DNA of 64,000 nt. Source: Thermoanaerobaculia bacterium. Its GTDB lineage: Bacteria; Acidobacteriota; Thermoanaerobaculia; Multivoradales; Multivoraceae. The stretch is taken from contig JAJDUI010000014.1 of the NCBI GenBank assembly GCA_022826745.1, positions 8,520-72,519 on the forward strand, given 5' to 3'. Under the pieces are notes generated by a model. The model ran no database searches and had not been told where the DNA came from. It saw nothing but the letters and a program-made list of their open reading frames with translations. Position numbers and translations under genes: made by a program. Shown here in pieces: positions 2,333 to 53,815 of the stretch. Every line of letters starts with the position of its first letter. Position 1 is the stretch's first letter.

Positions 2333-3108
2333 CCGAGTACCAAGGCAGCATCAACGGCGAACGCAACGCCGAAACCGGCGGCAACCACTCACAGGGCCGG
2401 AACGCCTGGCTCACGGCGCTGCTCGGGCTCTTCGCGTCGCCGCGGCAGAGCTTCGAGATCATCCGGAACCGCAACCCATGGCTCGCAACGCTGCTCCTGG
2501 TCCTGGCTGGAAACGCCGCCCTGGCCCTGGCCTCGGCGCCGCTGGGCCTCCAGGCCATGCGTGCCCAACTGACGGAGCGGATGCCGGGCAGCCCGGACCA
2601 GGTCGACGCCATGATGGCGCAGTTCGAACAGGCAGCCGCGGCAGGGCGCTGGGTGGCGATGGTCACCGGTCCCCTCTCCGTGGCCGTCGGACTCGCGATT
2701 CAGACCGTGCTCGTGTGGCTCCTGGCGGTCGCCCTCCAGGGACGGCTCCGATTCGTCCAGTCCCTCGCCCTGATGATCCACCTGGCCGTGATCACTCATC
2801 TCCAGAGCTGGGCCAACTTCCTTCTCATTCACCTCCGCGGCACCGACGCGATCCGATCGCAAATGGACCTCCGGGCGCCGATGGGACTCGACCTGCTGCT
2901 GGCCGGCGACAACGCGACGCTCAACGCCGTCTACGCGAGCATCAACCCGTTCACGATCTGGTTTCTCGCGCTGCTCGCGCTGGGCGCCGCCGCGGTGTTC
3001 GAGGTTCCGCAGCGCAAGGCATGGCTGCTGGCCGCCATCTACTGGGCAGCGACGACGGCCTTCACCGCCGTGGCGGCCGGTCTCTTTGCCCGGCTCACGC
3101 CGAGCTGA
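2329..3108 (+). CDS. Yip1-family membrane protein
   Basis: N-terminal LFASPRQSFE..R..PW pattern, several TM helices, C-terminal SINPFTIW; ATGA overlap with the ATPase stop. Confidence 0.8.
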   Translation: MTEYQGSINGERNAETGGNHSQGRNAWLTALLGLFASPRQSFEIIRNRNPWLATLLLVLAGNAALALASAPLGLQAMRAQLTERMPGSPDQVDAMMAQFEQAAAAGRWVAMVTGPLSVAVGLAIQTVLVWLLAVALQGRLRFVQSLALMIHLAVITHLQSWANFLLIHLRGTDAIRSQMDLRAPMGLDLLLAGDNATLNAVYASINPFTIWFLALLALGAAAVFEVPQRKAWLLAAIYWAATTAFTAVAAGLFARLTPS

Positions 3109-6700: not shown

Positions 6701-8593
6701 TTGACCGGTTCCGCACGCCACCGCCGGCCGCCGAGGCTGCTGGTCGCCACCGCCGCCATGGCGCTCACGGCCGCGTCCCACTTCGCGGGTCCAACCGGGG
6801 CCAACGGGCAGGACCGTCGGCCGCAGCAGGGGCAGATTCGAGAGGACATCGTGCTCCGCGAGTCGATCGACGTTCGGCTGATCAGTCTCGACGCCGTCGT
6901 CACCGACTCCTCCGACCGGCCGGTCACCGGCCTGACCAAGGACGACTTCGAACTCAAGGTCCAGGACGAACCCGTCGAGATACTGAGCGTGGCGGCCGGA
7001 GAAGACCTCCGCACCACCGTCACCGGGCGCCTGACGATTCTCCTGTTCATCGACGAGCGCCACCTGCAACGGAAGCACCGCGACGCGGCCCTGGCCGAGA
7101 TCGCCGGCGCCCTCGACGAGGAGATCGCAGCCAACCCGACCTGGGTGGCGGCCGCGGCGTTCGGTGAGCGTCTCGAACCGCTGCTGTCGCCGACCCGCGA
7201 CCGCGCGGCGGTACGGACAACGATCGAAGCCGCGATGAACCGGGACATCCCGTCGACGACCCTGCGCACCCACCAGCGCTCCGTTTCCCTGGCCATGAGG
7301 GAGACGCTGCGGCTGATGGCGGCCAGGGGCAGCCGCTACCGACTAGGCGAGGCTTCCCTCGCCAGCGTCGAGGCGAACCTCCGGAACTTCGGCGAGGCCC
7401 TGCGTCAGGACACCCTGCTGACCGTCAGCGCGGTGCGCTCGCTGGTCGAGGCGCTGGCCTTCGTCCCCGGCCGCAAGGCGATCCTGTTCGTGAGCGACGG
7501 CCTGCCCCGCCACCCCCTCGACAGCGCCGCCAAGACGATGTACGACCGCCTCGCGGGCGCCTCCCGGCAACTCGAGGGCGACGAGATGATCAGCGCGCCC
7601 GGCTCGCTCGACCTGAACGATCGCAACCACCGGCCCTTCGGCGTCGACCGGGCCGACCGCATGGGCATGGCCACGAACATCGTCCAGGTCGACGACGGCG
7701 GCGCGTTCGCCTTCCAGACGATGGCCGCCGAGCTGAGCTGCGCGGACGCCTTCGATCAACTGGCGGCACTCGCGAACACCCACCGGGTCACCTTCTACCC
7801 GCTTAAGCCGCCGGTCATCGACCCGGCGATCAGCGAGCTCGGCGAGAGCGCCAAGGACCGCGGCTCGATCGTCGAGCTGTCGAACGTGCGAAGCGGCCTG
7901 AACAGCCTGGCCGGCCTGACCGGCGGCCTCTCCTTCGTCTCCGATACCGGCGTTGCCGAGTTCCTGCAGTCGACCCGCACCGACATCTCGACCTACTACT
8001 CGCTCTCTTTCACGCCGCCCGACTCGCTGGGCGACACCGGCATTCGAGAGATCACGCTCCGGCTGCGGCAACGGCCTCTCGCCCGGAGCGGCTCGCTCCG
8101 CTACCGGGCGAGCTACGCGCCGGTGACGATCCAGCAGAACCTGGCCAGCCGAGCCTGGGGAACGCTGCTGTTCGGCTGGGAGGAGAACAACCACGGCATG
8201 GAGGTCCAGGTCAGGAGGTCCGCGTCGCGCGAGCGGCCGGAGCAACCCGGGCACACGCCGTTGGAAGTCAGGGCCAGTCTGCCGATCGGCGACCTTGAAC
8301 TCGCGCCTGTCCGGGCGACGCGCAACCCGGTCGCCAGCGGCTTCTTCCGCGTGGTGGTCCAGGTCCAGCGCGAAGACGGCAGCCGGATGCCTCCCCAGCA
8401 CTTCGACTTCGAGCTGAACGTGCCGGTCGCAGAACTCGAGCAGGCGGCAGGCCAGTACATCGCCGTCCGCAGCGAAGTCGTCCTGCCGCCGGGCTCCTAC
8501 CGGCTGGCGGTCGGCATCTGGGAGGAGAACAGCGGCCGCTCGTCCTTCGTGGTCCGGGAGCTGGCGGTGCAGGCCGACCCAAGCGTCGCCTGA
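6701..8593 (+). CDS. VWA-domain (VWFA-related, Acidobacterial type) secreted protein; start uncertain
   Basis: VRLISLDAVVTD..DRPVTGLTKDDFEL, PGRKAILFVSDG, LAGLTGG, YYSLSF motifs. Confidence 0.85.
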   Translation: MTGSARHRRPPRLLVATAAMALTAASHFAGPTGANGQDRRPQQGQIREDIVLRESIDVRLISLDAVVTDSSDRPVTGLTKDDFELKVQDEPVEILSVAAGEDLRTTVTGRLTILLFIDERHLQRKHRDAALAEIAGALDEEIAANPTWVAAAAFGERLEPLLSPTRDRAAVRTTIEAAMNRDIPSTTLRTHQRSVSLAMRETLRLMAARGSRYRLGEASLASVEANLRNFGEALRQDTLLTVSAVRSLVEALAFVPGRKAILFVSDGLPRHPLDSAAKTMYDRLAGASRQLEGDEMISAPGSLDLNDRNHRPFGVDRADRMGMATNIVQVDDGGAFAFQTMAAELSCADAFDQLAALANTHRVTFYPLKPPVIDPAISELGESAKDRGSIVELSNVRSGLNSLAGLTGGLSFVSDTGVAEFLQSTRTDISTYYSLSFTPPDSLGDTGIREITLRLRQRPLARSGSLRYRASYAPVTIQQNLASRAWGTLLFGWEENNHGMEVQVRRSASRERPEQPGHTPLEVRASLPIGDLELAPVRATRNPVASGFFRVVVQVQREDGSRMPPQHFDFELNVPVAELEQAAGQYIAVRSEVVLPPGSYRLAVGIWEENSGRSSFVVRELAVQADPSVA

Positions 8594-13127: not shown

Positions 13128-14491
13128 GGCCGCGGCTCCAGGTCGGCGTCTGCGGTTTGCTGGCCGCGGCGTCCGCCTGGAGCCAGGTTCCGGAATCGAC
13201 GCCCGGCGAGCCGCCGGCGCCACGCTGGACCACGATCGAGCGCCTGTCGGAAGAACGTCTGGCGGCCGCTCACGCCGACATCCAACGCCTCCGCGCGGCC
13301 GTTCAACCGCCGCCGCCCCTCCCCGGCCTCAACGACTATCGCGGTGTGTTCCACGCCCACGCCGGCGACTCGGACCACACCGGCGGTACGCCTGAGGAAC
13401 TGCTCCGGGACGCCAGGCGTGTCGGCGTCGACATCGTCTTCCTTTCGGACCACTACCGGCCGCCGCGAGACTTCATGGACGGTTGGCGCGGTCTTCACGA
13501 CGGCGTGCTCTTCGTTCCCGGCTCGGAGGCGCACGGCTTCCTGATCCACCCCGAGGAGTCGGTCGTCGAGTACATGGGTGCCGACGCCGGCACATTGCTC
13601 CGCCATGTGAACCGCGGCGCCGGCATGGCCTTCCTCTCCCACGTCGAAGAGCGGGTCGAGCACCCGATGGACGGCCTGACCGGCATGGAGATCTACAACC
13701 GCCACGCCGACGCCCTCGACGACGGCGACTCGATGCGGGCCCTGGTCGCCTGGATCGTCGACCCGGACCGGTCGAAGGACCTGGCCCGCGCCGTCGAGCT
13801 GTACCCCGAGGAGGTCTTCGGCGCCCAGTTCGACTATCCCGCGCTCTACCTGGAGAAGTGGGACCGCGAGACGGCACGACGTCGGATCGTCGGCGTCAAC
13901 GCGAACGACTGCCACCACAACCAGGTCTTCGTCGTCATCAAGGTCGACGACGAGTCCGTCCGCGTCGGCACGATCGTCGACGATCCGGACGAAATGAGAG
14001 TTCTGACCGCCGCCGACGCGCCGGGAATCCCCGAACTCGTCAGCGGCCACGAAGCCGGTGCCGTCATCGGCCGCTACGACCTCGACCCCTACTGGGTCTC
14101 CATGAACAACTCCACGACCCACATCCTGGCGGCGGCACTCGACGAAGACTCCATCCGCACCGCCGTCGCCGCCGGCCACGTCTACGTCGCCCACGGCTGG
14201 CTGGCCGACCCGACGGGGTTCTCCTTCTACATCGACGAAGGGGAAGGGCCTACAGCCATCATGGGCGACGAGTGGACTCTGGAAGCCGGCGCAACGGTCG
14301 AACTCAAGGCCCGCTTCCCCTTGCCCGCAAAGGTCCGCCTCATCCGCAACGGCGAGGAGGTCGCCGTCACCGAAGCCCGGTCCCTCAACTACCGCCTCGA
14401 TCAACCGGGCGCCTACCGCGTCGAAGGCTGGCTGGAAGTCGACGGTGAATGGCGGACGTGGATCTACTCGAATCCGGTGTATGTGAAGTAA
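13124..14491 (+). CDS. Secreted PHP-domain metallohydrolase
   Basis: GVFHAH..SDH, LSDH, GSE, MEIYN, NDCH, C-terminal PGAYRVE..WIYSNPVY; GTG overlaps the upstream stop. Confidence 0.8.
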   Translation: MRPRLQVGVCGLLAAASAWSQVPESTPGEPPAPRWTTIERLSEERLAAAHADIQRLRAAVQPPPPLPGLNDYRGVFHAHAGDSDHTGGTPEELLRDARRVGVDIVFLSDHYRPPRDFMDGWRGLHDGVLFVPGSEAHGFLIHPEESVVEYMGADAGTLLRHVNRGAGMAFLSHVEERVEHPMDGLTGMEIYNRHADALDDGDSMRALVAWIVDPDRSKDLARAVELYPEEVFGAQFDYPALYLEKWDRETARRRIVGVNANDCHHNQVFVVIKVDDESVRVGTIVDDPDEMRVLTAADAPGIPELVSGHEAGAVIGRYDLDPYWVSMNNSTTHILAAALDEDSIRTAVAAGHVYVAHGWLADPTGFSFYIDEGEGPTAIMGDEWTLEAGATVELKARFPLPAKVRLIRNGEEVAVTEARSLNYRLDQPGAYRVEGWLEVDGEWRTWIYSNPVYVK

Positions 14492-14582
14492 GGCGAAAGC
14501 CTCATCCGGACTGCCGCCTCGTCGACCACCCCTCGCCTGGATCCCTCCGGCGACCAGTCACAACGCCGCCAGCTACCTTGAC

Positions 14583-14762
14583 TCAGTTCTCGGACGCGCC
14601 GCGTCTCCGCGACTTCTGAATCACCGCCAAGTGCTCGTCCCAGTTAGGCTCGACGACGGGACCCTGCTCCAAGTCACACTGCCGGAAGAAGTCCTGAAGT
14701 TCGGCAACCGACTTGAACGGACGCTCCTGCTGCCGTCGGTCGCTTCGCGATTCTCTACGCAT
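14583..14762 (-). CDS. 59-aa orphan protein, possibly an antitoxin remnant (below the ORF-track cutoff)
   Basis: Manual translation MRRESRSDRRQQERPFKSVAELQDFFRQCDLEQGPVVEPNWDEHLAVIQKSRRRGASEN; GAGGGAG/AGGA upstream; antitoxin resemblance recalled, not verified. Confidence 0.45.
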   Translation of the reverse strand: MRRESRSDRRQQERPFKSVAELQDFFRQCDLEQGPVVEPNWDEHLAVIQKSRRRGASEN

Positions 14763-14787
14763 TCCTGAGGCACTCCCTCAACGCGTG

Positions 14788-15504
14788 TCACCGCGTCAGC
14801 CTCGACTCCCACGGACTGTACCCTGGTGTCACGGGATACTCCAGGTCTCTGCCACATGACACGCTTGGGTAGAACGCCACGCTCGTGACACAGCCACTGC
14901 TGGTGGCCAGCCAGAGCAACACCCTGCCATTCTCCTTCCAGCAGGCGACGGAGCCGCACCCATAGTAGTCGCATTCGCAGGGGAAACACGCTCCGAGATG
15001 GCTGCCGTGTCGATCCAGATCCCGGTACTGGGTCTGCGGAAACGTGACTTCGCGGAGGCCGAGAACCTCGCTCTCAACAAACAGAGGAAGGAACTCATAG
15101 GCGCTCATTCCCGCGAGAGATCGGACGGACTGTTCGGAGCATTCGGCGAGGAGAAAGCTCCCCAGCAACCGCGCCATACCGACACTCGCCCGCGGGATCG
15201 GCGGCGGGCTGCCGACTTCTTCCGACGCGCCCGCCTCGTCACTGAACAGTCCGTCGTAGACGCGGTCGTCCGAGAAGACAAGGTAGCGGCCGTCGCGCAC
15301 CTCCTGAGGCACTCTCAGGCCGTCCACCCCCACATCGACCGTCGGCAGCACGTTTCCAGAGTTCAAACGTTCCCACTGAGCTTCGGTCAGAGCCAGCAGG
15401 CCGTACGATTCTTGATCCTCGGGTGGCCACCAAAGCTCGAATCCGGCTCGCGCAGCAGCCTTGACGAGCGCCAGATCCGGACGGCTGGGCTCAGTCGGCG
15501 TCAT
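14788..15504 (-). CDS. Hypothetical protein with lower GC and a Cys cluster
   Basis: GGAG-N6-ATG at 15504; CFPCECDYYGCG motif; atypical codon usage. Confidence 0.6.
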   Translation of the reverse strand: MTPTEPSRPDLALVKAAARAGFELWWPPEDQESYGLLALTEAQWERLNSGNVLPTVDVGVDGLRVPQEVRDGRYLVFSDDRVYDGLFSDEAGASEEVGSPPPIPRASVGMARLLGSFLLAECSEQSVRSLAGMSAYEFLPLFVESEVLGLREVTFPQTQYRDLDRHGSHLGACFPCECDYYGCGSVACWKENGRVLLWLATSSGCVTSVAFYPSVSCGRDLEYPVTPGYSPWESRLTR

Positions 15505-15577
15505 CGTCAACTCCAGCTTCAGTCCAGTTTGGCATCTACTCAGCCTAGTCGAGACGATGCCCGCCAGTCCGCCGCGG

Positions 15578-15770
15578 CCGACGCCCTCCAGCCCCTCCGG
15601 GCCGGAGGGGAGGGTCCACGGGGGCTGTCGGCAAGCGACGGCCGACACCCGCTCGTGAACCGACGCCCGACCGGAGCGCAGCCGACCGAAGCGAGCGCCC
15701 ACCCTACCTCCACCGAGAAAGCGCGAGCGGCCCCGGGGACCCTCCCCTCCGGACCGGAGAAGGCGGGTGC
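15578..15770. repeat. Structured interspersed element, copy A
   Basis: Imperfect ~33-bp inverted arms (~15591-15624 / 15731-15764) around core AGCGCAGCCGACCGAAGCGAGCGC (15675-15698), shared with copies B and C. Confidence 0.85.
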
Positions 15771-22885: not shown

Positions 22886-25173
22886 GCCTTTCCTCCATCG
22901 TGCGGCGCCCAGCCGACCGGAATCTCCTCGGCCTGCCGCAGGCCGCGGCCGTAGATCACCGGCCGTTCGCTGCGGCGCGGCCGGCGCAGCCGCTCGACCC
23001 GCACCCGAACACCGCTCTGCGCGAACGCTCCGACACCAGCGACCCGGCGGTTCGCGTCCAGCAATACGTTCACATTGACACCGCGGCCGCGCGCGTAGCG
23101 GCCGTAGTCCGCGTAGCCGCCGCCGACCGGCACCCCCACACAGCCCGGCCGCACCGTGGGAAGGACGATGACCGGCAGGTCGATCTCGACCGCGGTTCCG
23201 GTCAGCCGCACGATGTCGCCGGTGTGGATGCCGAGACGGTCCGCGTCCTCGGTGGCGACTTCGGCCCAGGACCCCCACATGACGGTCGACAGCGGGTCTG
23301 GCAACTCCTGCAGCCACGGCCGGTTCGCGCCCCGGCCGTCGCCGCTTTTCACCGACTCGAACGGAATCAGCGTGAAGGACTCCACGCCCGCGGGAGCTGC
23401 GGGCGCAGGCATGGAAGCCGGATCGGGAAGCCCGGCAGGCGCGCCGTCCCCGTCGACCTGAGCCGACCGAACGGGCGCGCGCCGCATTCCCGCCGTTCCG
23501 ACCAGGCCGCCGGCGTCCGTCGTCCGCCGCACGAACTGACGCGCGTTCAGGGCACCCGCGATCAGGGATTCGGGCAGCGCGCCGGCATCCTCGGCATCGG
23601 CTCTCGTCGCGGTGAAGACATCGCTGAGCGAGGCCTCGACCGCCTCCTGGAAGCCCGGCCAGGGCAACGCACTGCCGGCGGCCGCGGCAAGCGCCAGGGC
23701 CACGTCGCCCGGATGCCGCGCCTCACCCCGCGGGGCCACAGTCGGCGATGCGATGAGCAGCGCCGGCATTCCGCGCACCGGGTCCGGCTCCACCGCCTGG
23801 AAGCGTTCCAAGTCGGTCTGGATCGGGAGCACGACATCGGCCCGCAGCGCCGTGTCGTCGAAGAAGGCGGAGAGAGCGATCACCGTGCCGGCGCCCTCGA
23901 AGGCAGCCTCGAACCCCGGCATCCCGTGGAGCGGATCGGCCTCCGACACGACGAGCACGCTCGACTCGCCAGCGCCGTCCAGCCGGTCCGCCAGCGCCGC
24001 CGGTGACACGGCCGCGTCGGCATCGCCGGCCAGCCGGTCTTCGAAGCCGAAGTCGACCCCGGCGAAGACCCCGCCCTCACGGCCCACCGCGCCGAGCAAC
24101 AGGTTGAGCGCGAGCGCGGCGGCGCCCGCGGCGACACCGTTTTCGCCGTCGAGCGCCGAGCCGCCGACCATCACCAGGGGCCGGCGGCTGCGCGCGAGCT
24201 CGGCGGCGAGGCGTTCGATCCGGCTCGCGTCGATACCGCAGCGTTCGGCCGTCGCCGTCAGGTCGGGCGGCGCTTCGGGAAACAGCATCTCGTAGGCCGC
24301 CCGCTCCTCCTCCCCGACCGTTCCCGAGCCGAGCAGGAGACCGGCGAGGCCGCGCGCGAAGAAACCCTCGCTGCCCGGGCGCACCGGCAGCCAGTCGTCC
24401 GCGTTCGCCGCGGTCAGCGAGTGGCGCGCCTCGACCTGCACCAGCTTGCCGCGCCGGTCGGCGGTCAGCTCGGCCCAGGCGCCTGCGAAGTGGGCGGCGC
24501 TCCGCCAACCGTCGAGGAAGGGCGCGCCGATGCTGAGCACGTAGTCGGCTCGGGCCATGTCATACGCCGGCCGGCAAGCCTCTCCGAAGGTCAGGCGAGC
24601 CGCCTCACGCTCCACAACCAGGTCGGCTGATTGCCAGTGCACCGGCGGCGGCGCGCCGACCACGGCCGCCAACCGTCGCCACAGGCCAAGCAGCGGCCCC
24701 GATGGCGCGCCGGACACAACGGTCGTCGCCTCCGGAGCGGCCATGATCGCCGTCGCCGCGGACTCGAGCGCTTCCTCCCACGACACCGGCTCCAGTTCGC
24801 CCGAAGCGCCGCGCCGCATCGGCTCCGTCACCCGGTCCGGGTGATACAGCTCCTGGAGGGCCGAGTGCCCAAGGGCGCAAACGCCGCCCGCGTTGACGAA
24901 GCCTGACGGCAACCCCTCGATCTTCTTCGCCAGCCGGTCGACGGTCCGCACCTCGATCTCGCAACCGGCGCCGCACTGCCCGCAGATCGACCGCCGCCAC
25001 ACGGACGCGCCCGGCAGGGCGGTGCTCCGCCGCGCCGGCGACTCGATCCACTCCTCGTCCCGGCGGCGGCAGCCCTGCAGCACCGCCACGCCGGCGGCCG
25101 CGTAGACCTTGAAGAAGTCCCGCCGCCCGATCGTGACCCGCGGCTCGCCGCGCTTACTCTCGTTGCCGCTCAT
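22882..25173 (-). CDS. Molybdopterin-oxidoreductase-family subunit (ActB1/QrcB-like), Tat lipoprotein
   Basis: GRRDFFK...LQGC; CGQCGAGC...C; LYHPDR; TAANADDW; NRPWLQELPDPL. Confidence 0.9.
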   Translation of the reverse strand: MSGNESKRGEPRVTIGRRDFFKVYAAAGVAVLQGCRRRDEEWIESPARRSTALPGASVWRRSICGQCGAGCEIEVRTVDRLAKKIEGLPSGFVNAGGVCALGHSALQELYHPDRVTEPMRRGASGELEPVSWEEALESAATAIMAAPEATTVVSGAPSGPLLGLWRRLAAVVGAPPPVHWQSADLVVEREAARLTFGEACRPAYDMARADYVLSIGAPFLDGWRSAAHFAGAWAELTADRRGKLVQVEARHSLTAANADDWLPVRPGSEGFFARGLAGLLLGSGTVGEEERAAYEMLFPEAPPDLTATAERCGIDASRIERLAAELARSRRPLVMVGGSALDGENGVAAGAAALALNLLLGAVGREGGVFAGVDFGFEDRLAGDADAAVSPAALADRLDGAGESSVLVVSEADPLHGMPGFEAAFEGAGTVIALSAFFDDTALRADVVLPIQTDLERFQAVEPDPVRGMPALLIASPTVAPRGEARHPGDVALALAAAAGSALPWPGFQEAVEASLSDVFTATRADAEDAGALPESLIAGALNARQFVRRTTDAGGLVGTAGMRRAPVRSAQVDGDGAPAGLPDPASMPAPAAPAGVESFTLIPFESVKSGDGRGANRPWLQELPDPLSTVMWGSWAEVATEDADRLGIHTGDIVRLTGTAVEIDLPVIVLPTVRPGCVGVPVGGGYADYGRYARGRGVNVNVLLDANRRVAGVGAFAQSGVRVRVERLRRPRRSERPVIYGRGLRQAEEIPVGWAPHDGGKA

Positions 25174-25180
25174 CCCGTCC

Positions 25181-25711
25181 TCACCGGTGGCAGGCCAGGC
25201 AGTCGTCGCTGGCTTCGTTCTCGCGGTGACACTCGACGCACCAACCCATGTCGGCGACGTTGCGCACCGGCTCGGCCACCGTCATCGAAGCCACGTCGCC
25301 ATGACAGGTCAGGCACTCGATACCGGCGCGCGCATGGGCCCGATGGTTGAAGTGGACCATCGCCGAGTCCGGGATCACGTTCACCTTCGCCCACAGGATC
25401 GGCTCCCGATTCTCATTCGCGAGCATCACCTTCTGGACTTCGGGATGGTCGGGAATCTCCCTCCGATGACAACCGGCACAGGCCTGCACCGACGGCATCC
25501 CCGCGTGCACTCCCTCCTCCGCACCCCGATGGCAACGAACGCACTCCAGCCCGGCCTCGATATGAACCTGGTGGTCGTAACCAATCGGCTGTTCAGGAGT
25601 AGGCAGATTCTGCCTCGGCCCACAGCCCAAGACCACGATCGCGAAGACCCCAGCCAAACCGACAGCCAACCGCCGACCCCCAACCCCAGCAGCCCAGCGG
25701 CCATCGACCAC
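25181..25711 (-). CDS. Pentaheme cytochrome c (ActA-like) lipoprotein; start approximate
   Basis: Five CxxCH motifs (CVRCH, CAGCH, CLTCH, CVECH, CLACH), QPI.YDH..H, VHFNH..H, MGWC; lipobox VVLGC. Confidence 0.9.
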   Translation of the reverse strand: MVDGRWAAGVGGRRLAVGLAGVFAIVVLGCGPRQNLPTPEQPIGYDHQVHIEAGLECVRCHRGAEEGVHAGMPSVQACAGCHRREIPDHPEVQKVMLANENREPILWAKVNVIPDSAMVHFNHRAHARAGIECLTCHGDVASMTVAEPVRNVADMGWCVECHRENEASDDCLACHR

Positions 25712-25900
25712 CGACGCCGTCCAGCCCGGGCTGGCGCCGGATGGCCGTCCCAGCGGGCTGGAGGCAAGCGACTGCCCATCCGTTCCCGCAACCACGGCCA
25801 ACACGCAGCGCAGCCGACCGAAGCGAGCGCGGCCGCCCCCCTCACCCAGAGAGCGCGAGCGTCCGCAGGGACGGCCATCCGGCGTCAGCCCGGGCGGGTA
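25711..25900. repeat. Structured interspersed element, copy B
   Basis: 28-bp arms 25724-25751 / 25868-25895 (one G-T pair); core 25807-25830; 12-bp direct repeat ACCGACGCCGTC at 25710-25721 and 25906-25917. Confidence 0.85.
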
Positions 25901-25932
25901 CAGGAACCGACGCCGTCTCACTCCGCGCGGCC

Positions 25933-26544
25933 TCAGACCTCGCGGATCCGCTGATACGAAGGGACTTCCTGCAGCCGCGTCCAGTAGCGCCGCACGTTGT
26001 CGCCGAAGTCGTCGATGCCGAGCGACTCCGCCAGCTTCAGGCCGTAGCCGACGCAGATGTCGGCGATCGTGAGGCGGTCGCAGCACAGAAAGTCGCGGCC
26101 GTCCGAGGTCGCCGACTCGACGAGCCGCAACCGGCCCAGGAACCACCGGCGGTAGTCCTCCGCGACCTGCGGCACCCTCCGCTCCTCGGGCTCCAGCCGC
26201 GTGTAGCGGAGGAACAGCGTCTGCGGGAACGTCAGCGTCGCGTCGCTGTAGAACAGCCAGTTCAGGTACGCGCCGTAATCCGGGTCATCCACGTCGACGG
26301 CGAGCGGGGTCGGACCGTAACGGTCGACCAGGTACTTCGCGATTCCCGAGGACTCCGTCATGTGGACGTGGCCGTCGATCATGTAGGGAACCGTGCCGAG
26401 GAGGTTGGTGCCAAGGTAGTCCTTCTTGAACACGCGCGGCGGGAAGGGCAGGACGTGCAGGTCGTAGTCGATGCCCATCTCCTCCAGCGTCCAGACGGCA
26501 CGCAGCGACCGGGCGCCCTGGCAGTGGTAGAGCTGAATCGTCAC
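25933..26544 (-). CDS. Glutathione S-transferase family protein
   Basis: LYH..GARS.R..W.LEE, N.LGTVP, ESSGI..YL, TIADI. Confidence 0.92.
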   Translation of the reverse strand: MTIQLYHCQGARSLRAVWTLEEMGIDYDLHVLPFPPRVFKKDYLGTNLLGTVPYMIDGHVHMTESSGIAKYLVDRYGPTPLAVDVDDPDYGAYLNWLFYSDATLTFPQTLFLRYTRLEPEERRVPQVAEDYRRWFLGRLRLVESATSDGRDFLCCDRLTIADICVGYGLKLAESLGIDDFGDNVRRYWTRLQEVPSYQRIREV

Positions 26545-52546: not shown

Positions 52547-53488
52547 TCACGCGGCCGGCAACCGCCGACGGAGCCAGATCGAGCCGAAGTGGGTGTCGTA
52601 GTCCTCGACCTCGACCGGGCGGTAGCCGGGAATCGTCCGTTCCAGGAAGGGCTCGTCGAAGTGGCGGATCATCGGCGCCGACAGCAGCAACTCGAACTCC
52701 CGGTTGAAGCTCAGGAAAGCCTGGAGGACCATGGCCTCCGTGCGGTAGAGCGGCCACTTGGCGCGGAAGATGTACTGCTCGGCCGGATACGGCGTGTTGT
52801 ACGGAAAGTGAATGTCGTGAACGTGAACCACGACGCCCGGCCGCAGCCGCGGCAGCACCTCGAGAAAGAGAAACGCAACGTCGCCGCCGAGCTTCAGCAC
52901 GTGGGTCGAATCGATGAACAGCACGTCGCCGGCTTCCAGAGCCTCGAAGAGCCCCAGGTCCGCCGCCTCCACCTTCGAGACCACCGCATGGACGGCGGGC
53001 TCGCGCAGCTCGTTCAGCCGCCCGGTCGGGAACGGGTCGACGCAGGTCATCTCACACCCGCGACCGTCACGGCCGTTCGCCGCCGCAGCAAGCCACGCGT
53101 AGTAGGTCGAAAGACCGGACCCGATCTCGACGTAACGCGCCGGCCGGAGATCCCGCACCATGAGGTACGTCGTCAGAGCGTCGATCACCGGGAAGCCGGG
53201 GCCGTAACCCAGCTCCCGGATCTCGCCGTGCGGCGGCAGTTTCCCGAACTCACCGCCATGAGTCTCGACCAGAGCTTCCAGAAGCGATTTCATCGCCTCC
53301 AGGTCGTAGTCGACACCCACCAGCTCGCTCGGCCGGTCCCAGGACTCCCGGGAAGCCGCGACCTCCGACAGCACCGGCAACGGCGAATAGAAGTCTGCCG
53401 TACGCGCTACGTTCCACCCCAACTTGCGCAACGCAGCGAACAGGGCCGCGTGTAGCCGCCGATAGATCGTCCTCAACACCTTCACCAT
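52547..53488 (-). CDS. Class I SAM-dependent methyltransferase (Methyltransf_24-like)
   Basis: FYSP.P, EIGSG.ST, DVLFIDSTH, HVHDI.FP. Confidence 0.9.
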   Translation of the reverse strand: MVKVLRTIYRRLHAALFAALRKLGWNVARTADFYSPLPVLSEVAASRESWDRPSELVGVDYDLEAMKSLLEALVETHGGEFGKLPPHGEIRELGYGPGFPVIDALTTYLMVRDLRPARYVEIGSGLSTYYAWLAAAANGRDGRGCEMTCVDPFPTGRLNELREPAVHAVVSKVEAADLGLFEALEAGDVLFIDSTHVLKLGGDVAFLFLEVLPRLRPGVVVHVHDIHFPYNTPYPAEQYIFRAKWPLYRTEAMVLQAFLSFNREFELLLSAPMIRHFDEPFLERTIPGYRPVEVEDYDTHFGSIWLRRRLPAA

Positions 53489-53583
53489 CAGACGCCGACG
53501 ATAGCCCGTCCGGCGACCAAGGAGCGAGGCTTCGCCTCGCGCGTCTATCCCGGGCGACGCCGCTTCGCAGCATCGCCCGTCAG

Positions 53584-53613
53584 GCCGGCGAGGGCGCCGG
53601 CGCACCCAGTGTG
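53584..53613 (+). repeat. REP-like palindrome abutting element copy C
   Basis: GCCGGC-GAGGGC-GCCGGC-GCACCCAGTGTG. Confidence 0.7.
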
Positions 53614-53615
53614 AA

Positions 53616-53815
53616 CCGACGACGTCCAGCCTGCGGCGGGGTCCGGAGGGGAGGGTCCCAGCGGGCTAGAGGCCAGCGACTGCCGAGAGCGCACGGCCAA
53701 CCACAGCCGCCCGGAGCGCAGCCGACCGCAGCGAGCGCCAGGTCCCTCCATCCACCACGAGGGCGCAAGCGTCCGTCTGGGACCCTCCCCTCCGGACCCC
53801 GCCGCAGGCGGGTGC
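53616..53815. repeat. Structured interspersed element, copy C
   Basis: Perfect 32-bp arms 53629-53660 / 53778-53809; core 53715-53738. Confidence 0.85.

What the first reader, a model, noticed from the sequence alone, without database searches (positions are those of the whole stretch)
25181..25720. One-sided strand-biased mutation halo beside the structured elements
Seen: left of copy B the cytochrome gene has 16 T-ending and only 1 A-ending codon among 50 codons (manual count, ~25520-25670), fading along the gene, whereas a 19-codon sample of nrfD in the same operon had none ending in T. The methyltransferase left of copy C (~53050-53488) is similarly rich in T-ending and TTG codons, and the + strand PHP gene tail ~1.1 kb left of copy A (~14200-14490) is enriched in A-ending codons, i.e. 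the same minus-strand C-to-T direction. The genes right of A and B look normal; btuB right of C is ambiguous. Known: cytosine deamination is much faster in ssDNA. Inference: the element repeatedly exposes one flanking strand (nicking, displacement or local repair synthesis), acting as a local mutator.
Basis: partly seen in the sequence, partly recalled or inferred. Interest (0 to 1): 0.75.

Follow-up and report, generated by a model that had tools for sequence, protein, structure and literature searches.

The report
Strand-skewed mutation halo beside a repeat
For about 700 bases on one side of each copy of a 190-base palindromic repeat, the neighbouring genes have lost C and gained T and G on one DNA strand and evolve faster, which looks like the footprint of a local, one-directional DNA-damaging or repair process.

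Summary

The window's three elements belong to a family of about 190 nt with 46 copies in this Thermoanaerobaculia genome. In 36 of 46, a gene's stop lies within 100 nt of one edge.

- 36 of 39 loci, against none at 2,795 control gene ends (p=4e-14).
- It does not depend on the orientation of the resident gene.
- It is tied to the element, not to gene starts.
- It recurs in three other species.
- Two other hairpin repeat families lack it.

Silent-site divergence there is 1.7-fold higher (17 of 20 loci). C>T on that strand is the class raised most. Orthologues in congeners that lack the family mostly lack the halo (.085 vs .213; 6 of 8 loci; p=.078). A weaker opposite skew on the gene side persists in them, so I read it as context.

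A local mutational origin is likely. The mechanism (nick or break repair versus read-through transcription) is open. Unchecked notes of this scan report similar halos in other genomes.

The parts
25720..25899 (-). Repeat copy B (about 180 nt). It has 36-nt terminal inverted arms. The sense used here is that of the gene that ends beside it, i.e. the minus strand.
   Evidence: Inverted repeat 25721-25756 / 25863-25898, 92% complementary. nhmmer hit C8:34239-34418 (listed). One of 46 genomic copies.
25020..25719 (-). Downstream halo of copy B. On the minus strand the silent sites are C-poor and G/T-rich. It covers the whole multihaem cytochrome gene and the first codons of the molybdopterin oxidoreductase gene.
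   Evidence: T3 27 of the first 90 codons. (GC skew at third positions +.05 to +.28 in 5 genomes with the element, against +.02 to -.27 in 4 without).
25181..25711 (-). Multihaem cytochrome c gene (176 aa, lipoprotein-type signal, CXXCH motifs). It is the first gene of a cytochrome / molybdopterin oxidoreductase / 4Fe-4S / NrfD operon.
   Evidence: Pfam Cytochrome_C7 3.4e-11. Neighbours: Molybdopterin, Fer4, NrfD. Translation.
25933..26544 (-). GST-like gene whose stop lies 34 nt from copy B (the 'upstream' gene). Its composition is normal.
   Evidence: Pfam GST_N. Last 100 codons T3 3, A3 1. GC skew at third positions -.08 to -.14 in all 7 genomes compared.
53625..53814 (-). Repeat copy C.
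   Evidence: Inverted repeat 53626-53661 / 53777-53812, 97% complementary. nhmmer hit C8:62144-62333. Absent at the orthologous site in G020 and G013; a scar remains in G001.
52925..53624 (-). Downstream halo of copy C. It covers the 5' part of a Methyltransf_24 gene (52547-53488) and the spacer.
   Evidence: T3 36 of 313 in G000 against 22, 22, 20, 20 in four orthologues. G3:C3 in the first 50 codons is 31:11, and it is similar in the orthologues (27:12, 30:13, 27:20, 33:16).
15587..15769 (-). Repeat copy A.
   Evidence: Inverted repeat 15595-15630 / 15724-15759. nhmmer hit C8:24106-24288.
14492..15586 (.). A 1.1-kb stretch downstream of copy A with no confident gene. Together with copy A it is an insertion/deletion polymorphism.
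   Evidence: No gene called. No Pfam family for two ORFs in it. G020 and G013 lack query positions about 1328-2602. One metagenome contig joins 14504 to 15801, and depth drops 5- to 20-fold.

Best explanation
The halo is a mutational footprint, not codon-usage selection or chance.

The element is a dispersed, DNA-level palindrome of about 190 nt that sits just after stop codons. It marks a place where a polar DNA transaction recurs on its far side. Either the strand running 5'->3' away from the element is repeatedly left single-stranded, or it is re-synthesised with errors, for up to about 700 nt. The most likely trigger is a nick or break at the element's downstream edge. That edge is also where accessory DNA is inserted and deleted.

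The result is loss of C with gain of T and G on that strand, at all codon positions and most strongly at silent sites. It occurs whatever the orientation of the resident gene. It comes with a 1.5- to 2.8-fold higher substitution rate.

Shown: the pattern, its anchoring to the element, its independence of gene orientation, the raised rate, and its weakness in congeners without the family. Inferred: that the cause is a DNA-level event at the element, and which enzyme or step produces it.
For: 1. Family-wide and against controls. Downstream 0-350 nt, the third-position excess GC skew is +.228 (36 of 39 loci above 0) against +.009 at 2,795 control gene ends (MWU p=4e-14). At 350-700 nt it is +.124 (p=3e-5). 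Beyond 700 nt there is none. Raw GC skew over 400 nt is above 0 in 42 of 46 loci.
2. Strand logic. The shift is the same on the same strand in codirectional and convergent genes. 2-fold Y sites have T .267 against .117 in codirectional genes only. 2-fold R sites have A .315 against .187 in convergent genes only.
3. Anchored to the element. The peak lies at 100-400 nt and is gone by 800 nt. Genes that start more than 600 nt away have no halo at their 5' ends. Gene junctions without elements have D of about 0, against +.30 to +.39 with elements.
4. Replicated. The downstream skew is above 0 in G020 30 of 34, G013 11 of 11 and G001 29 of 33.
5. Specific. Two other hairpin repeat families (129 and 77 sites away from the element) show none.
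6. Rate. G000-G020 divergence at third positions is .18 in the halo against .09-.12 elsewhere; at positions 1+2 it is .054 against .018-.033. The halo exceeds the local background in 17 of 20 loci, median ratio 1.72, p=1.7e-4. The same holds for the 3' ends of convergent genes (.151 against .096), while the 3' ends of upstream genes are not raised (.092).
7. Polarised rates. C>T .121 against .043-.051; G>A .069 against .036-.041; other classes 1.4- to 1.8-fold.
8. Orthologues. In four congeners that hold almost none of the family, the halo value is .085 against .213 at the same sites (18 pairs, 8 loci). Flanking control segments are unchanged (slope .68, r .89). At locus B the difference is clear, with the next gene as an internal control.
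9. DNA-level element and unstable downstream edge. G.U and A.C mispairs are equally rare in the stems (93 against 90). Insertions, replacements and scars lie at the downstream edge.
Against: - The orthologue test is marginal by locus (6 of 8 loci lower, Wilcoxon p=.078), and its genomes are not independent.
- Close relatives that lack the element at a locus keep the halo.213 against .259 (6 pairs), and 13 of 16 sites that are empty in G000 keep a positive skew. This fits recent loss (scars) but equally fits insertion into sites that were already skewed.
- Noncoding DNA in the halo is skewed only weakly (GC skew +.079), whereas a pure mutational process should mark it strongly.
- Substitution rates inferred for the G000 and G020 lineages predict an equilibrium GC skew near 0 (-.01, interval -.16 to .16) against .18 observed. 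In convergent genes G>C outnumbers C>G by 39 to 9. The G-over-C part may therefore be decaying rather than being renewed. Parsimony with a distant outgroup biases this estimate.
- The recent C>T excess over G>A is seen in codirectional genes (61 against 35) but not in convergent ones (15 against 29).
- For plain deamination of a resected 3' tail at a break, the polarity is the wrong way round.
- No nicking enzyme is tied to the element.
Confidence: 0.45

Rival explanations
1. Transcription-linked mutagenesis. Transcripts of the gene that ends at the element read through it, because it has no T-run, and continue untranslated for several hundred bases. R-loops, or simply the open non-template strand, expose the sense strand to deamination. 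This gives a one-sided, orientation-independent, decaying halo with a raised rate.
For: - The halo lies only on the transcript-downstream side, and on the strand that would be non-template for read-through.
- It decays over a few hundred nt.
- C>T on that strand is raised most.
- No T-run follows the 3' arm in the 46-copy alignment.
- From abstracts only: R-loops from untranslated and antisense RNA are known in E. coli (PMC5909445), and R-loop exposure of the non-template strand is mutagenic (PMC4691750).
Against: - The halo is strong inside codirectional downstream ORFs, which would be translated, and weak in the untranslated spacer.
- The upstream gene is transcribed at least as much but shows the opposite composition and no rise in rate.
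- Two other post-gene hairpin repeat families show no halo.
- The stem statistics give no sign of an RNA-level structure.
- No expression data could be used: the RNA runs were contigs only.
Confidence: 0.2
2. Context rather than cause. The element inserts into, or survives only at, places that already have this composition (C-rich gene end on one side, G/T-rich DNA on the other). Alternatively, selection keeps the flanks that way because the element needs it, for example to fold or extrude, or for Rho loading.
For: - The upstream C-rich skew is equally present in orthologues from congeners that lack the family (-.101 against -.109; 24 pairs, 11 loci), so at least that half is context.
- Sites that are empty in G000 but occupied in relatives keep the downstream skew (mean +.102, 13 of 16 above 0).
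- At locus C the G-over-C skew of the methyltransferase 5' end is shared by four orthologues that lack the element at that site; one of them (G001) keeps a scar.
- The recent substitution pattern does not clearly renew the skew.
Against: - In the family-poor genomes the downstream halo is much weaker (.085 against .213, slope .19), while control segments are conserved (slope .68).
- At locus B two element-free genomes have normal composition.
- At least two of the three G020-occupied / G000-empty sites are losses, because they are also occupied in G001 or G013, and one of them keeps a remnant of the 5' arm.
- Selection on composition does not explain a 2.8-fold rise at first and second codon positions.
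- T3 tracks the presence of the element even among close relatives (-.020 against -.001).
Confidence: 0.2
3. Import of diverged DNA. The downstream edge is a cassette border where homologous or illegitimate recombination repeatedly brings in foreign alleles. The flank therefore looks fast-evolving and atypical.
For: - Downstream DNA is often replaced or inserted: locus A (1.27 kb); G016 at locus C (5.4 kb); two inverted copies in G020 enclosing 4.9 kb; downstream flanks that cannot be aligned.
- Blast identity is lower downstream than upstream at nearly every shared locus.
- An earlier scan note calls this family a cassette-border repeat (e1-714137; unchecked).
Against: - It does not explain a consistent strand polarity at 36 of 39 loci, or the clean split between 2-fold site classes.
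- The halo sits in conserved core genes with nearly identical proteins across nine genomes.
- Divergence is raised moderately at most loci, not massively at a few.
Confidence: 0.1
4. Ordinary codon bias of gene ends, or chance in three hand-picked genes.
For: 5' ends do have slightly more T3 and A3 (T3 .079-.101 in the first 25 codons). The copy-A example is weak.
Against: The effect is three- to four-fold larger than the 5'-end effect. It extends over 230 codons. It is absent from control gene ends and from junctions without the element. It is also present in the 3' ends of convergent genes.
Confidence: 0.03

Closest known systems
Replication-associated strand asymmetry (leading strand G>C and T>A, sign switch at oriC; named from my own knowledge; reviewed in PMC10030826, abstract only)
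   Same: Same spectrum and polarity. The strand running 5'->3' away from the element is enriched in G and T and depleted in C at silent sites, whatever the gene orientation. The sign flips at a point.
   Different: - The scale is about 0.7 kb, not a replichore, and it returns to baseline.
- There are 46 dispersed sites, not one.
- The magnitude is far larger (excess skew .23).
- The two sides behave differently: only one side is linked to the element and evolves faster.
Transcription-associated mutagenesis / R-loop GC skew (C>T on the non-transcribed strand; the flanks of tRNA and snRNA genes in eukaryotes are recalled, not read; PMC4691750 and PMC5909445, abstracts only)
   Same: A short-range, strand-specific footprint rich in C>T, with a raised rate, next to a structured element. 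It lies on the strand that would be non-template for read-through.
   Different: It does not follow the coding strand of the resident genes. It is strong in translated ORFs and weak in the spacer. No transcription data are available.
Mutation zones around DNA breaks
   Same: A sub-kilobase to kilobase zone of raised mutation next to a fragile or processed site, with strand coordination. The downstream edge of the element is demonstrably a site of insertions and deletions.
   Different: Those are events in the laboratory or in tumours; this is a fixed evolutionary footprint. The polarity fits an outward-synthesised or displaced strand, not a deaminated 3' tail. No break has been shown.
REP / REPIN elements with RAYT transposases (PMC3116915 and PMC3337134, abstracts only)
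   Same: Dispersed extragenic palindromic repeats after gene ends, inherited vertically for a long time, with tens of copies. A single-copy Y1 (HUH) transposase-like gene is found in 16 of 26 genomes of the genus and in none of the 4 family-poor ones.
   Different: - The element is larger and branched (about 190 nt).
- G000 has no Y1_Tnp match, and 0 of 6 Y1 loci carry the element within the DNA fetched.
- 'GC skew' does not occur in any of the ten REPIN/RAYT papers listed. I did not read them.

Membership tests
Replication origin (oriC-type skew switch) | The skew switch persists over the whole replichore on both sides. | tested here: not met
   The excess skew returns to about 0 by 800 nt downstream and 600 nt upstream. 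There are 46 sites.
Ordinary 5'-end codon bias | The bias is seen at the 5' ends of control genes, with the same size and extent. | tested here: not met
   Control first-25-codon T3 is .079-.101 and returns to .06 by codon 50. Control gene ends have excess skew .009. Genes more than 600 nt from an element lack the bias.
Transcription-associated asymmetry of the resident gene | The skew follows the coding (non-template) strand of the gene it lies in. | tested here: not met
   Convergent genes in the halo are skewed against their own coding strand (C .608, G .266, A up at R sites).
Read-through / R-loop mutagenesis | Transcripts or RNA:DNA hybrids extend from the element over the halo. | not testable with these tools
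   Only contigs of RNA libraries were available. None of the pieces shown bridges an element, and the table is truncated.
REPIN-RAYT system | A RAYT (Y1 HUH transposase) gene is present in the genome and flanked by the repeat. | tested here: not met
   PF01797 has 0 matches in G000 (96.7% complete). 0 of 6 Y1 loci fetched from relatives contain the element.
REPIN-RAYT system | Dispersed extragenic palindromic repeats, mostly after gene ends, inherited vertically. | tested here: met
   46 copies. In 36 of 46 a co-oriented stop lies within 100 nt. 20 of 34 G020 copies analysed lie at sites occupied in G000; 2 to 3 are empty there.
Intrinsic terminator | A GC-rich hairpin followed directly by a T-run. 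| tested here: not met
   The consensus after the 3' arm is GGCTGGA-CGTCGTCGG, with no T-run.
Structured RNA element (Rfam) | A match to a curated family, or tolerance of G.U over A.C in the stems. | tested here: not met
   Only weak chance-level Rfam hits (E .76 and 6.7). G.U 93 against A.C 90.
Break-resection deamination cluster | C>T falls on the strand that ends 3' at the break, i.e. the strand running towards the site. | tested here: not met
   The strand that loses C runs 5'->3' away from the element.

The most novel reading that the evidence does not exclude
The repeat is a polar local mutator. A host or element-associated enzyme nicks the extruded hairpin and drives strand displacement or error-prone synthesis into the downstream flank. 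Each of the roughly 46 copies would then keep the first 700 nt of its neighbour evolving about twice as fast and with a fixed strand bias. This would be a natural, site-anchored diversification device at cassette borders. If the unchecked scan notes on Herbaspirillum, an alphaproteobacterium and an Asgard archaeon hold, it would be one instance of a widespread and undescribed class of mutational footprints around palindromic repeats.
Probability: 0.2. Interest if true: 0.9.

Novelty: new variant of a known kind. Interest (0 to 1): 0.72.

Why it matters
Local mutation rate and spectrum in bacteria are usually tied to replication direction, to transcription, or to context of a few bases. Here a dispersed repeat predicts both the composition and the rate of evolution of about 700 nt of neighbouring core genes.

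The effect is strong enough to make a gene finder trained on the genome's own codon usage truncate the cytochrome gene.

If the cause is a DNA transaction at the repeat:
- such repeats are not passive passengers but shape the evolution of adjacent genes;
- the halos give a readable record of where a repeat once sat and on which side it acts;
- the system offers a testable handle on what palindromic repeats do on DNA.

It also matters in practice. Halos distort codon-usage, dN/dS and horizontal-transfer screens for the genes next to such repeats.

Tried and rejected
- Rfam: at gathering thresholds the window holds only a cobalamin riboswitch. An E-value scan of copy B gave chance-level hits.
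- Metagenome and metatranscriptome contigs: all runs were contigs and the tables were truncated (975 differences not shown). Neither SNV density in the halo nor read-through transcription could be judged. No RNA piece shown bridges an element, which is no evidence either way.
- Replication direction against halo strength: the last permitted script failed with an index error before this part ran. It was not obtained.
- Equilibrium composition from polarised substitutions: the intervals are wide, and parsimony with a distant outgroup is biased towards changes from the common base to the rare base. I treat the apparent decay of the G-over-C skew as a hint only.
- The 'elementAligned' flag picked up paralogous copies at locus C. 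Presence or absence was therefore taken from the flank coordinates.
- Extraction of a Y1 transposase ORF from L180 gave a wrong-frame product. It was dropped.
- Halo strength does not correlate with the element's nhmmer score (rho .17) or with the upstream skew (rho -.11).
- Junction type (convergent, divergent, codirectional) has no skew of its own.
- Target-site duplication: a GGCGTCGG-like motif lies on both sides of several copies. The clearest occupied/empty pair shows no duplication, and other empty sites are imprecise deletions. This was left open.
- Four further G000 loci (L099-L102) were fetched but never searched in the relatives.
- Literature: I saw listings and abstracts only. None of the listed titles or abstracts describes a compositional halo beside a bacterial repeat. 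I read no full text, and supplements were not looked at.
Full report
**What is at the coordinates**

Positions 25181-25711 (minus strand) encode a 176-aa multihaem cytochrome c (Pfam Cytochrome_C7, 3.4e-11). It is the first gene of an operon that continues with a molybdopterin oxidoreductase, a 4Fe-4S protein and NrfD.

Ten bases upstream of its start lies copy B (25720-25899). Copy B is a repeat of about 180 nt with 36-nt inverted arms. Copies A (15587-15769) and C (53625-53814) are its relatives.

The window is C8:8520-72519 of a 4.39-Mb draft in 38 contigs. Earlier scan notes place it in the Thermoanaerobaculia, Acidobacteriota. Public runs that hold the sequence are mostly sponge metagenomes.

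**The observation**

The 50 codons at 25520-25669 end in T 16, A 1, G 20, C 13.

- T3 falls along the gene: 8, 9, 9, 3, 6, 2 per 30 codons.
- The genome's third positions are C .501, G .389, T .060, A .049.
- The general 5'-end effect reaches only T3 .08-.10 in the first 25 codons.
- No other called gene reaches even 19 T-ending codons in its first 90. This gene has 27.
- nrfD has 16 of 465. The methyltransferase beside copy C has 36 of 313. The gene tail left of copy A has A3 12 of 96, between the 95th and 99th percentile. The genes on the other side of the three copies are normal.

**The family and its setting**

An nhmmer profile of the three copies finds 46 copies in the genome.

With my own gene calls (3,238 genes, 90% coding), 36 of 46 copies have the stop codon of a co-oriented gene within 100 nt of one edge. 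I therefore orient each copy in the sense of that gene.

- "Upstream" is the gene that ends at the element.

The family is found in 23 of 24 other genomes of the genus and in 0 of 16 genomes from other genera of the order. Four congeners hold almost none: G021 0 matches, G003 1, G012 1, G024 2.

In the stems, G.U and A.C mispairs are equally rare (93 against 90 of 3,540 cells). No T-run follows the 3' arm. Rfam has no family for it. It therefore looks like a DNA-level palindrome rather than an RNA structure or an intrinsic terminator.

**The halo is family-wide**

Without any gene calls, the 400 nt downstream have positive GC skew on the sense strand in 42 of 46 loci. The mean is +.128, against -.033 upstream (Wilcoxon p=2e-11).

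At third codon positions, I measured the excess over the value expected for the gene's orientation:

| Segment | Excess skew at elements | Controls | p |
|---|---|---|---|
| Downstream 0-350 nt | +.228 (36 of 39 loci above 0) | +.009 (2,795 gene ends) | 4e-14 |
| Downstream 350-700 nt | +.124 | +.007 | 3e-5 |
| Beyond 700 nt | none | | |
| Last 350 nt upstream | -.127 | +.011 | 5e-8 |

The fine profile peaks at +.21 to +.26 between 100 and 400 nt and is gone by 800 nt. Upstream it peaks at -.21 and is gone by 600 nt.

Gene junctions without an element show no such switch, whatever their type (D between -.013 and +.009). Junctions with an element give +.30 to +.39. Of the 165 strongest skew switches in the genome, 29 lie at elements.

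Downstream genes that begin more than 600 nt from an element have ordinary 5' ends.

Two other hairpin repeat families in the same genome, with 129 and 77 sites away from the element, have no halo.

The halo recurs around copies in three other species: G020 30 of 34, G013 11 of 11, G001 29 of 33.

**It is strand-based, not codon-based**

In the first 500 nt downstream:

| Site class | Background | Codirectional genes | Convergent genes (own strand) |
|---|---|---|---|
| 4-fold sites | C .480, G .412, T .062 | C .306, G .504, T .128 | C .608, G .266 |
| 2-fold C/T sites, T fraction | .117 | .267 | .106 |
| 2-fold A/G sites, A fraction | .187 | .152 | .315 |

Read on one physical strand, the one running 5'->3' away from the element, both gene classes show the same thing: C down, T and G up, A slightly down.

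First and second codon positions shift the same way but less. Noncoding DNA in the halo shifts little (GC skew +.079). That is a point against a purely mutational reading, although those spacers are full of other repeats and indels.

**Rate**

G020 is 93-97% identical to G000. Divergence between them:

| Position class | Upstream and beyond 700 nt | Downstream 1-350 nt | Downstream 351-700 nt |
|---|---|---|---|
| Third positions | .09-.12 | .183 | .175 |
| First and second positions | .018-.033 | .054 | .055 |

- The halo exceeds its local background in 17 of 20 loci (median ratio 1.72, p=1.7e-4).
- The rise also holds for the 3' ends of convergent genes in the halo (.151 against .096).
- The 3' ends of upstream genes are not raised (.092).

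I polarised the changes with G013 or G001 as outgroup (parsimony):

| Change, per ancestral base | Halo | Elsewhere |
|---|---|---|
| C>T | .121 | .035-.051 |
| G>A | .069 | .028-.041 |
| C>G | .073 | .043-.054 |
| G>C | .077 | .042-.055 |

Every class is up about 1.4- to 1.8-fold, and C>T on the sense strand about 2.4- to 2.8-fold.

Split by gene class, the recent C>T excess over G>A is clear in codirectional genes (61 against 35) but not in convergent ones (15 against 29). The equilibrium GC skew implied by these rates is near zero (-.01, interval -.16 to .16) against .18 observed. Parsimony bias makes this inconclusive. It leaves open that the G-over-C part is old and decaying while the T part is current.

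**Orthologues with and without the element**

Locus B. Over 152 shared cytochrome codons, the GC skew at third positions is:

- +.11, +.05, +.28, +.13, +.07 in the five genomes that carry copy B;
- +.02, -.12, -.27, -.18 in the four that do not.

T3 is 29, 21, 32, 29, 17 against 23, 15, 12, 15. The next gene of the operon (+.05 to +.20) and the upstream GST gene (-.08 to -.14) do not differ between the groups.

Further loci. I took eight more loci in order of nhmmer score, not of skew.

| Comparison, at the same sites | Orthologue | G000 | Note |
|---|---|---|---|
| Halo, four family-poor genomes | .085 | .213 | 18 genome-locus pairs, 8 loci; 6 of 8 loci lower; Wilcoxon p=.078; slope .19 |
| Distal segments, family-poor genomes | unchanged | | differences -.001 and .000; slope .68, r .89 |
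| Upstream skew, family-poor genomes | -.101 | -.109 | 24 pairs, 11 loci |
| Halo, closer genomes lacking the element at the locus | .213 | .259 | 6 pairs |
| Halo, closer genomes carrying it | .187 | .186 | 11 pairs |

T3 is lower by .031 in the family-poor orthologues, by .020 in the closer ones without the element, and by .001 in the closer ones with it.

Sites that are occupied in a relative but empty in G000 keep a positive downstream skew (13 of 16, mean +.102). At least two of the three such sites relative to G020 are losses, because G001 or G013 is also occupied there. One of them, and G001 at locus C, retain fragments of the arms.

I read these results as follows.
- The downstream halo is linked to the long-term presence of the element and fades slowly after its loss.
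- The upstream C-rich skew is a property of the gene ends where elements sit.
- The genomes are related and the by-locus test is marginal, so this is the weakest link in the argument.

- B is the strongest case in the genome.
- C: the G-over-C skew of the methyltransferase 5' end is shared by four orthologues that lack the element at that site, one of which keeps a scar. G000 alone has 14-16 extra T-ending codons.
- A: the element and the 1.1 kb beside it are an insertion/deletion polymorphism. They are absent in G020 and G013 and in one metagenome contig. The A-rich tail of the gene beyond them has the same composition in genomes without copy A. It lies outside the family-wide range of the halo, so it should not be counted as support.

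**Mechanism**

The geometry needs one of two things. Either the outward-running strand on the downstream side is the one damaged, for example while single-stranded (C to U, A to hypoxanthine). Or it is the one newly synthesised with G.T-type misinsertions (C>T and A>G in the nascent strand). Both are named from general knowledge.

Two processes fit.

1. A nick or break at the downstream edge of the palindrome, followed by strand displacement or fill-in synthesis. In favour:
   - the DNA-level nature of the palindrome;
   - the evident instability of that edge (insertions of 1-5 kb, replacements, scars);
   - the rise at all codon positions;
   - the absence of halos at other post-gene hairpins.
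2. Read-through transcription with exposure of the non-template strand. In favour:
   - the one-sidedness in the sense of the upstream gene;
   - the lack of a terminator T-run.

   Against:
   - the strength of the halo inside translated ORFs;
   - the normal or opposite composition of the transcribed upstream gene.

A single-copy Y1 (HUH) transposase-like gene occurs in 16 of 26 genomes of the genus and in none of the four family-poor ones. G000 has none, and 0 of 6 such loci carry the element. This is a lead confounded by phylogeny, not evidence.

My estimates: a DNA-level transaction about .45, transcription about .20, pre-existing or selected context about .20, recombinational import about .10, chance or ordinary bias about .03.

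**Comparison with what is known**

The spectrum and polarity are those of replication strand asymmetry. The range and the link to a structured element recall transcription-associated and break-associated mutation zones. The element resembles REP/REPIN repeats but fails the RAYT-adjacency test.

Four full-text searches gave listings and abstracts only. None describes a compositional halo beside a bacterial repeat. In the ten REPIN/RAYT papers listed, 'GC skew' does not occur. I read no paper in full.

This scan has earlier, unchecked AI notes of similar halos beside palindromic repeats in Herbaspirillum, in a small alphaproteobacterial genome and at an insertion slot in an Asgard archaeon. It also has a note calling this family a cassette-border repeat. 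I did not test them. As summarised, one of them (e1-1902801) describes the opposite polarity.

**Limits**

- Gene calls are my own.
- Polarisation is by parsimony.
- Relatives are not independent.
- Only 11 of the 46 loci were examined in the relatives; 8 gave halo data in the family-poor congeners.
- Dependence on replication direction was not obtained.
- No expression or population-variant data could be used.

Noticed in passing
window 14492-15586 with copy A (15587-15769): About 1.27 kb, made of copy A and a gene-less 1.1-kb stretch, is missing as a block in G020 and G013 and in one metagenome contig (joint 14504 to 15801). Depth there drops 5- to 20-fold in two sponge metagenomes. Two ORFs in it have no Pfam family.
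   Followed up: partly
L003 (G020:C4:800167-811139), elements at 2872-3050 (+) and 7920-8102 (-): In G020, two copies in inverted orientation enclose 4.9 kb that G000 lacks; G000 has one copy there (C21:13881-14061). Both downstream sides face the insert, like a cassette bounded by the repeat.
   Followed up: no
genus-wide; e.g. G020:C4:1386352-1386570, G001:C1:749427-749648: A single Y1_Tnp (PF01797) match per genome is found in 16 of 26 genomes of the genus. It is in none of the four genomes that nearly lack the repeat family, and not in G000. It is not flanked by the repeat in 0 of 6 loci looked at.
   Followed up: partly
genome-wide; e.g. downstream spacers of C33:141276, C38:122208, C33:148450: Two further small hairpin repeat families have stems GCGGGTC-TTCT-GACCCGC and GCCGGCC-TTCT-GGCCGGC. 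blastn gives about 160-175 and 87 hits. They often cluster in the spacers next to the 190-nt element but have no skew halo of their own.
   Followed up: partly
window 25625-25929: A contig of sponge metagenome run X4 replaces this stretch (copy B plus the first 90 nt of the cytochrome gene) by 147 other letters. An allele of locus B without the element therefore seems to circulate in a closely related population.
   Followed up: no
   Followed up: no
both flanks of many copies; e.g. window 25700-25719 and 25900-25915: A GGCGTCGG(T)-like motif lies in direct orientation just outside both arms of many copies; at copy B it is 11 nt (ACGGCGTCGGT). It could be a preferred target or part of the element. 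The clearest occupied/empty pair shows no duplication.
   Followed up: partly
G013:C1:1134204-1135022: Four copies of the element stand in tandem, spaced about 205 nt apart, in G013.
   Followed up: no
C12:14500-17100, C35:25300, C10:38325 and other peaks: 136 of the 165 strongest local skew switches are not at elements. Positive ones favour gene 3' ends (40 of 78), and several are convergent junctions. They may be noise, or sites that once held an element.
   Followed up: no
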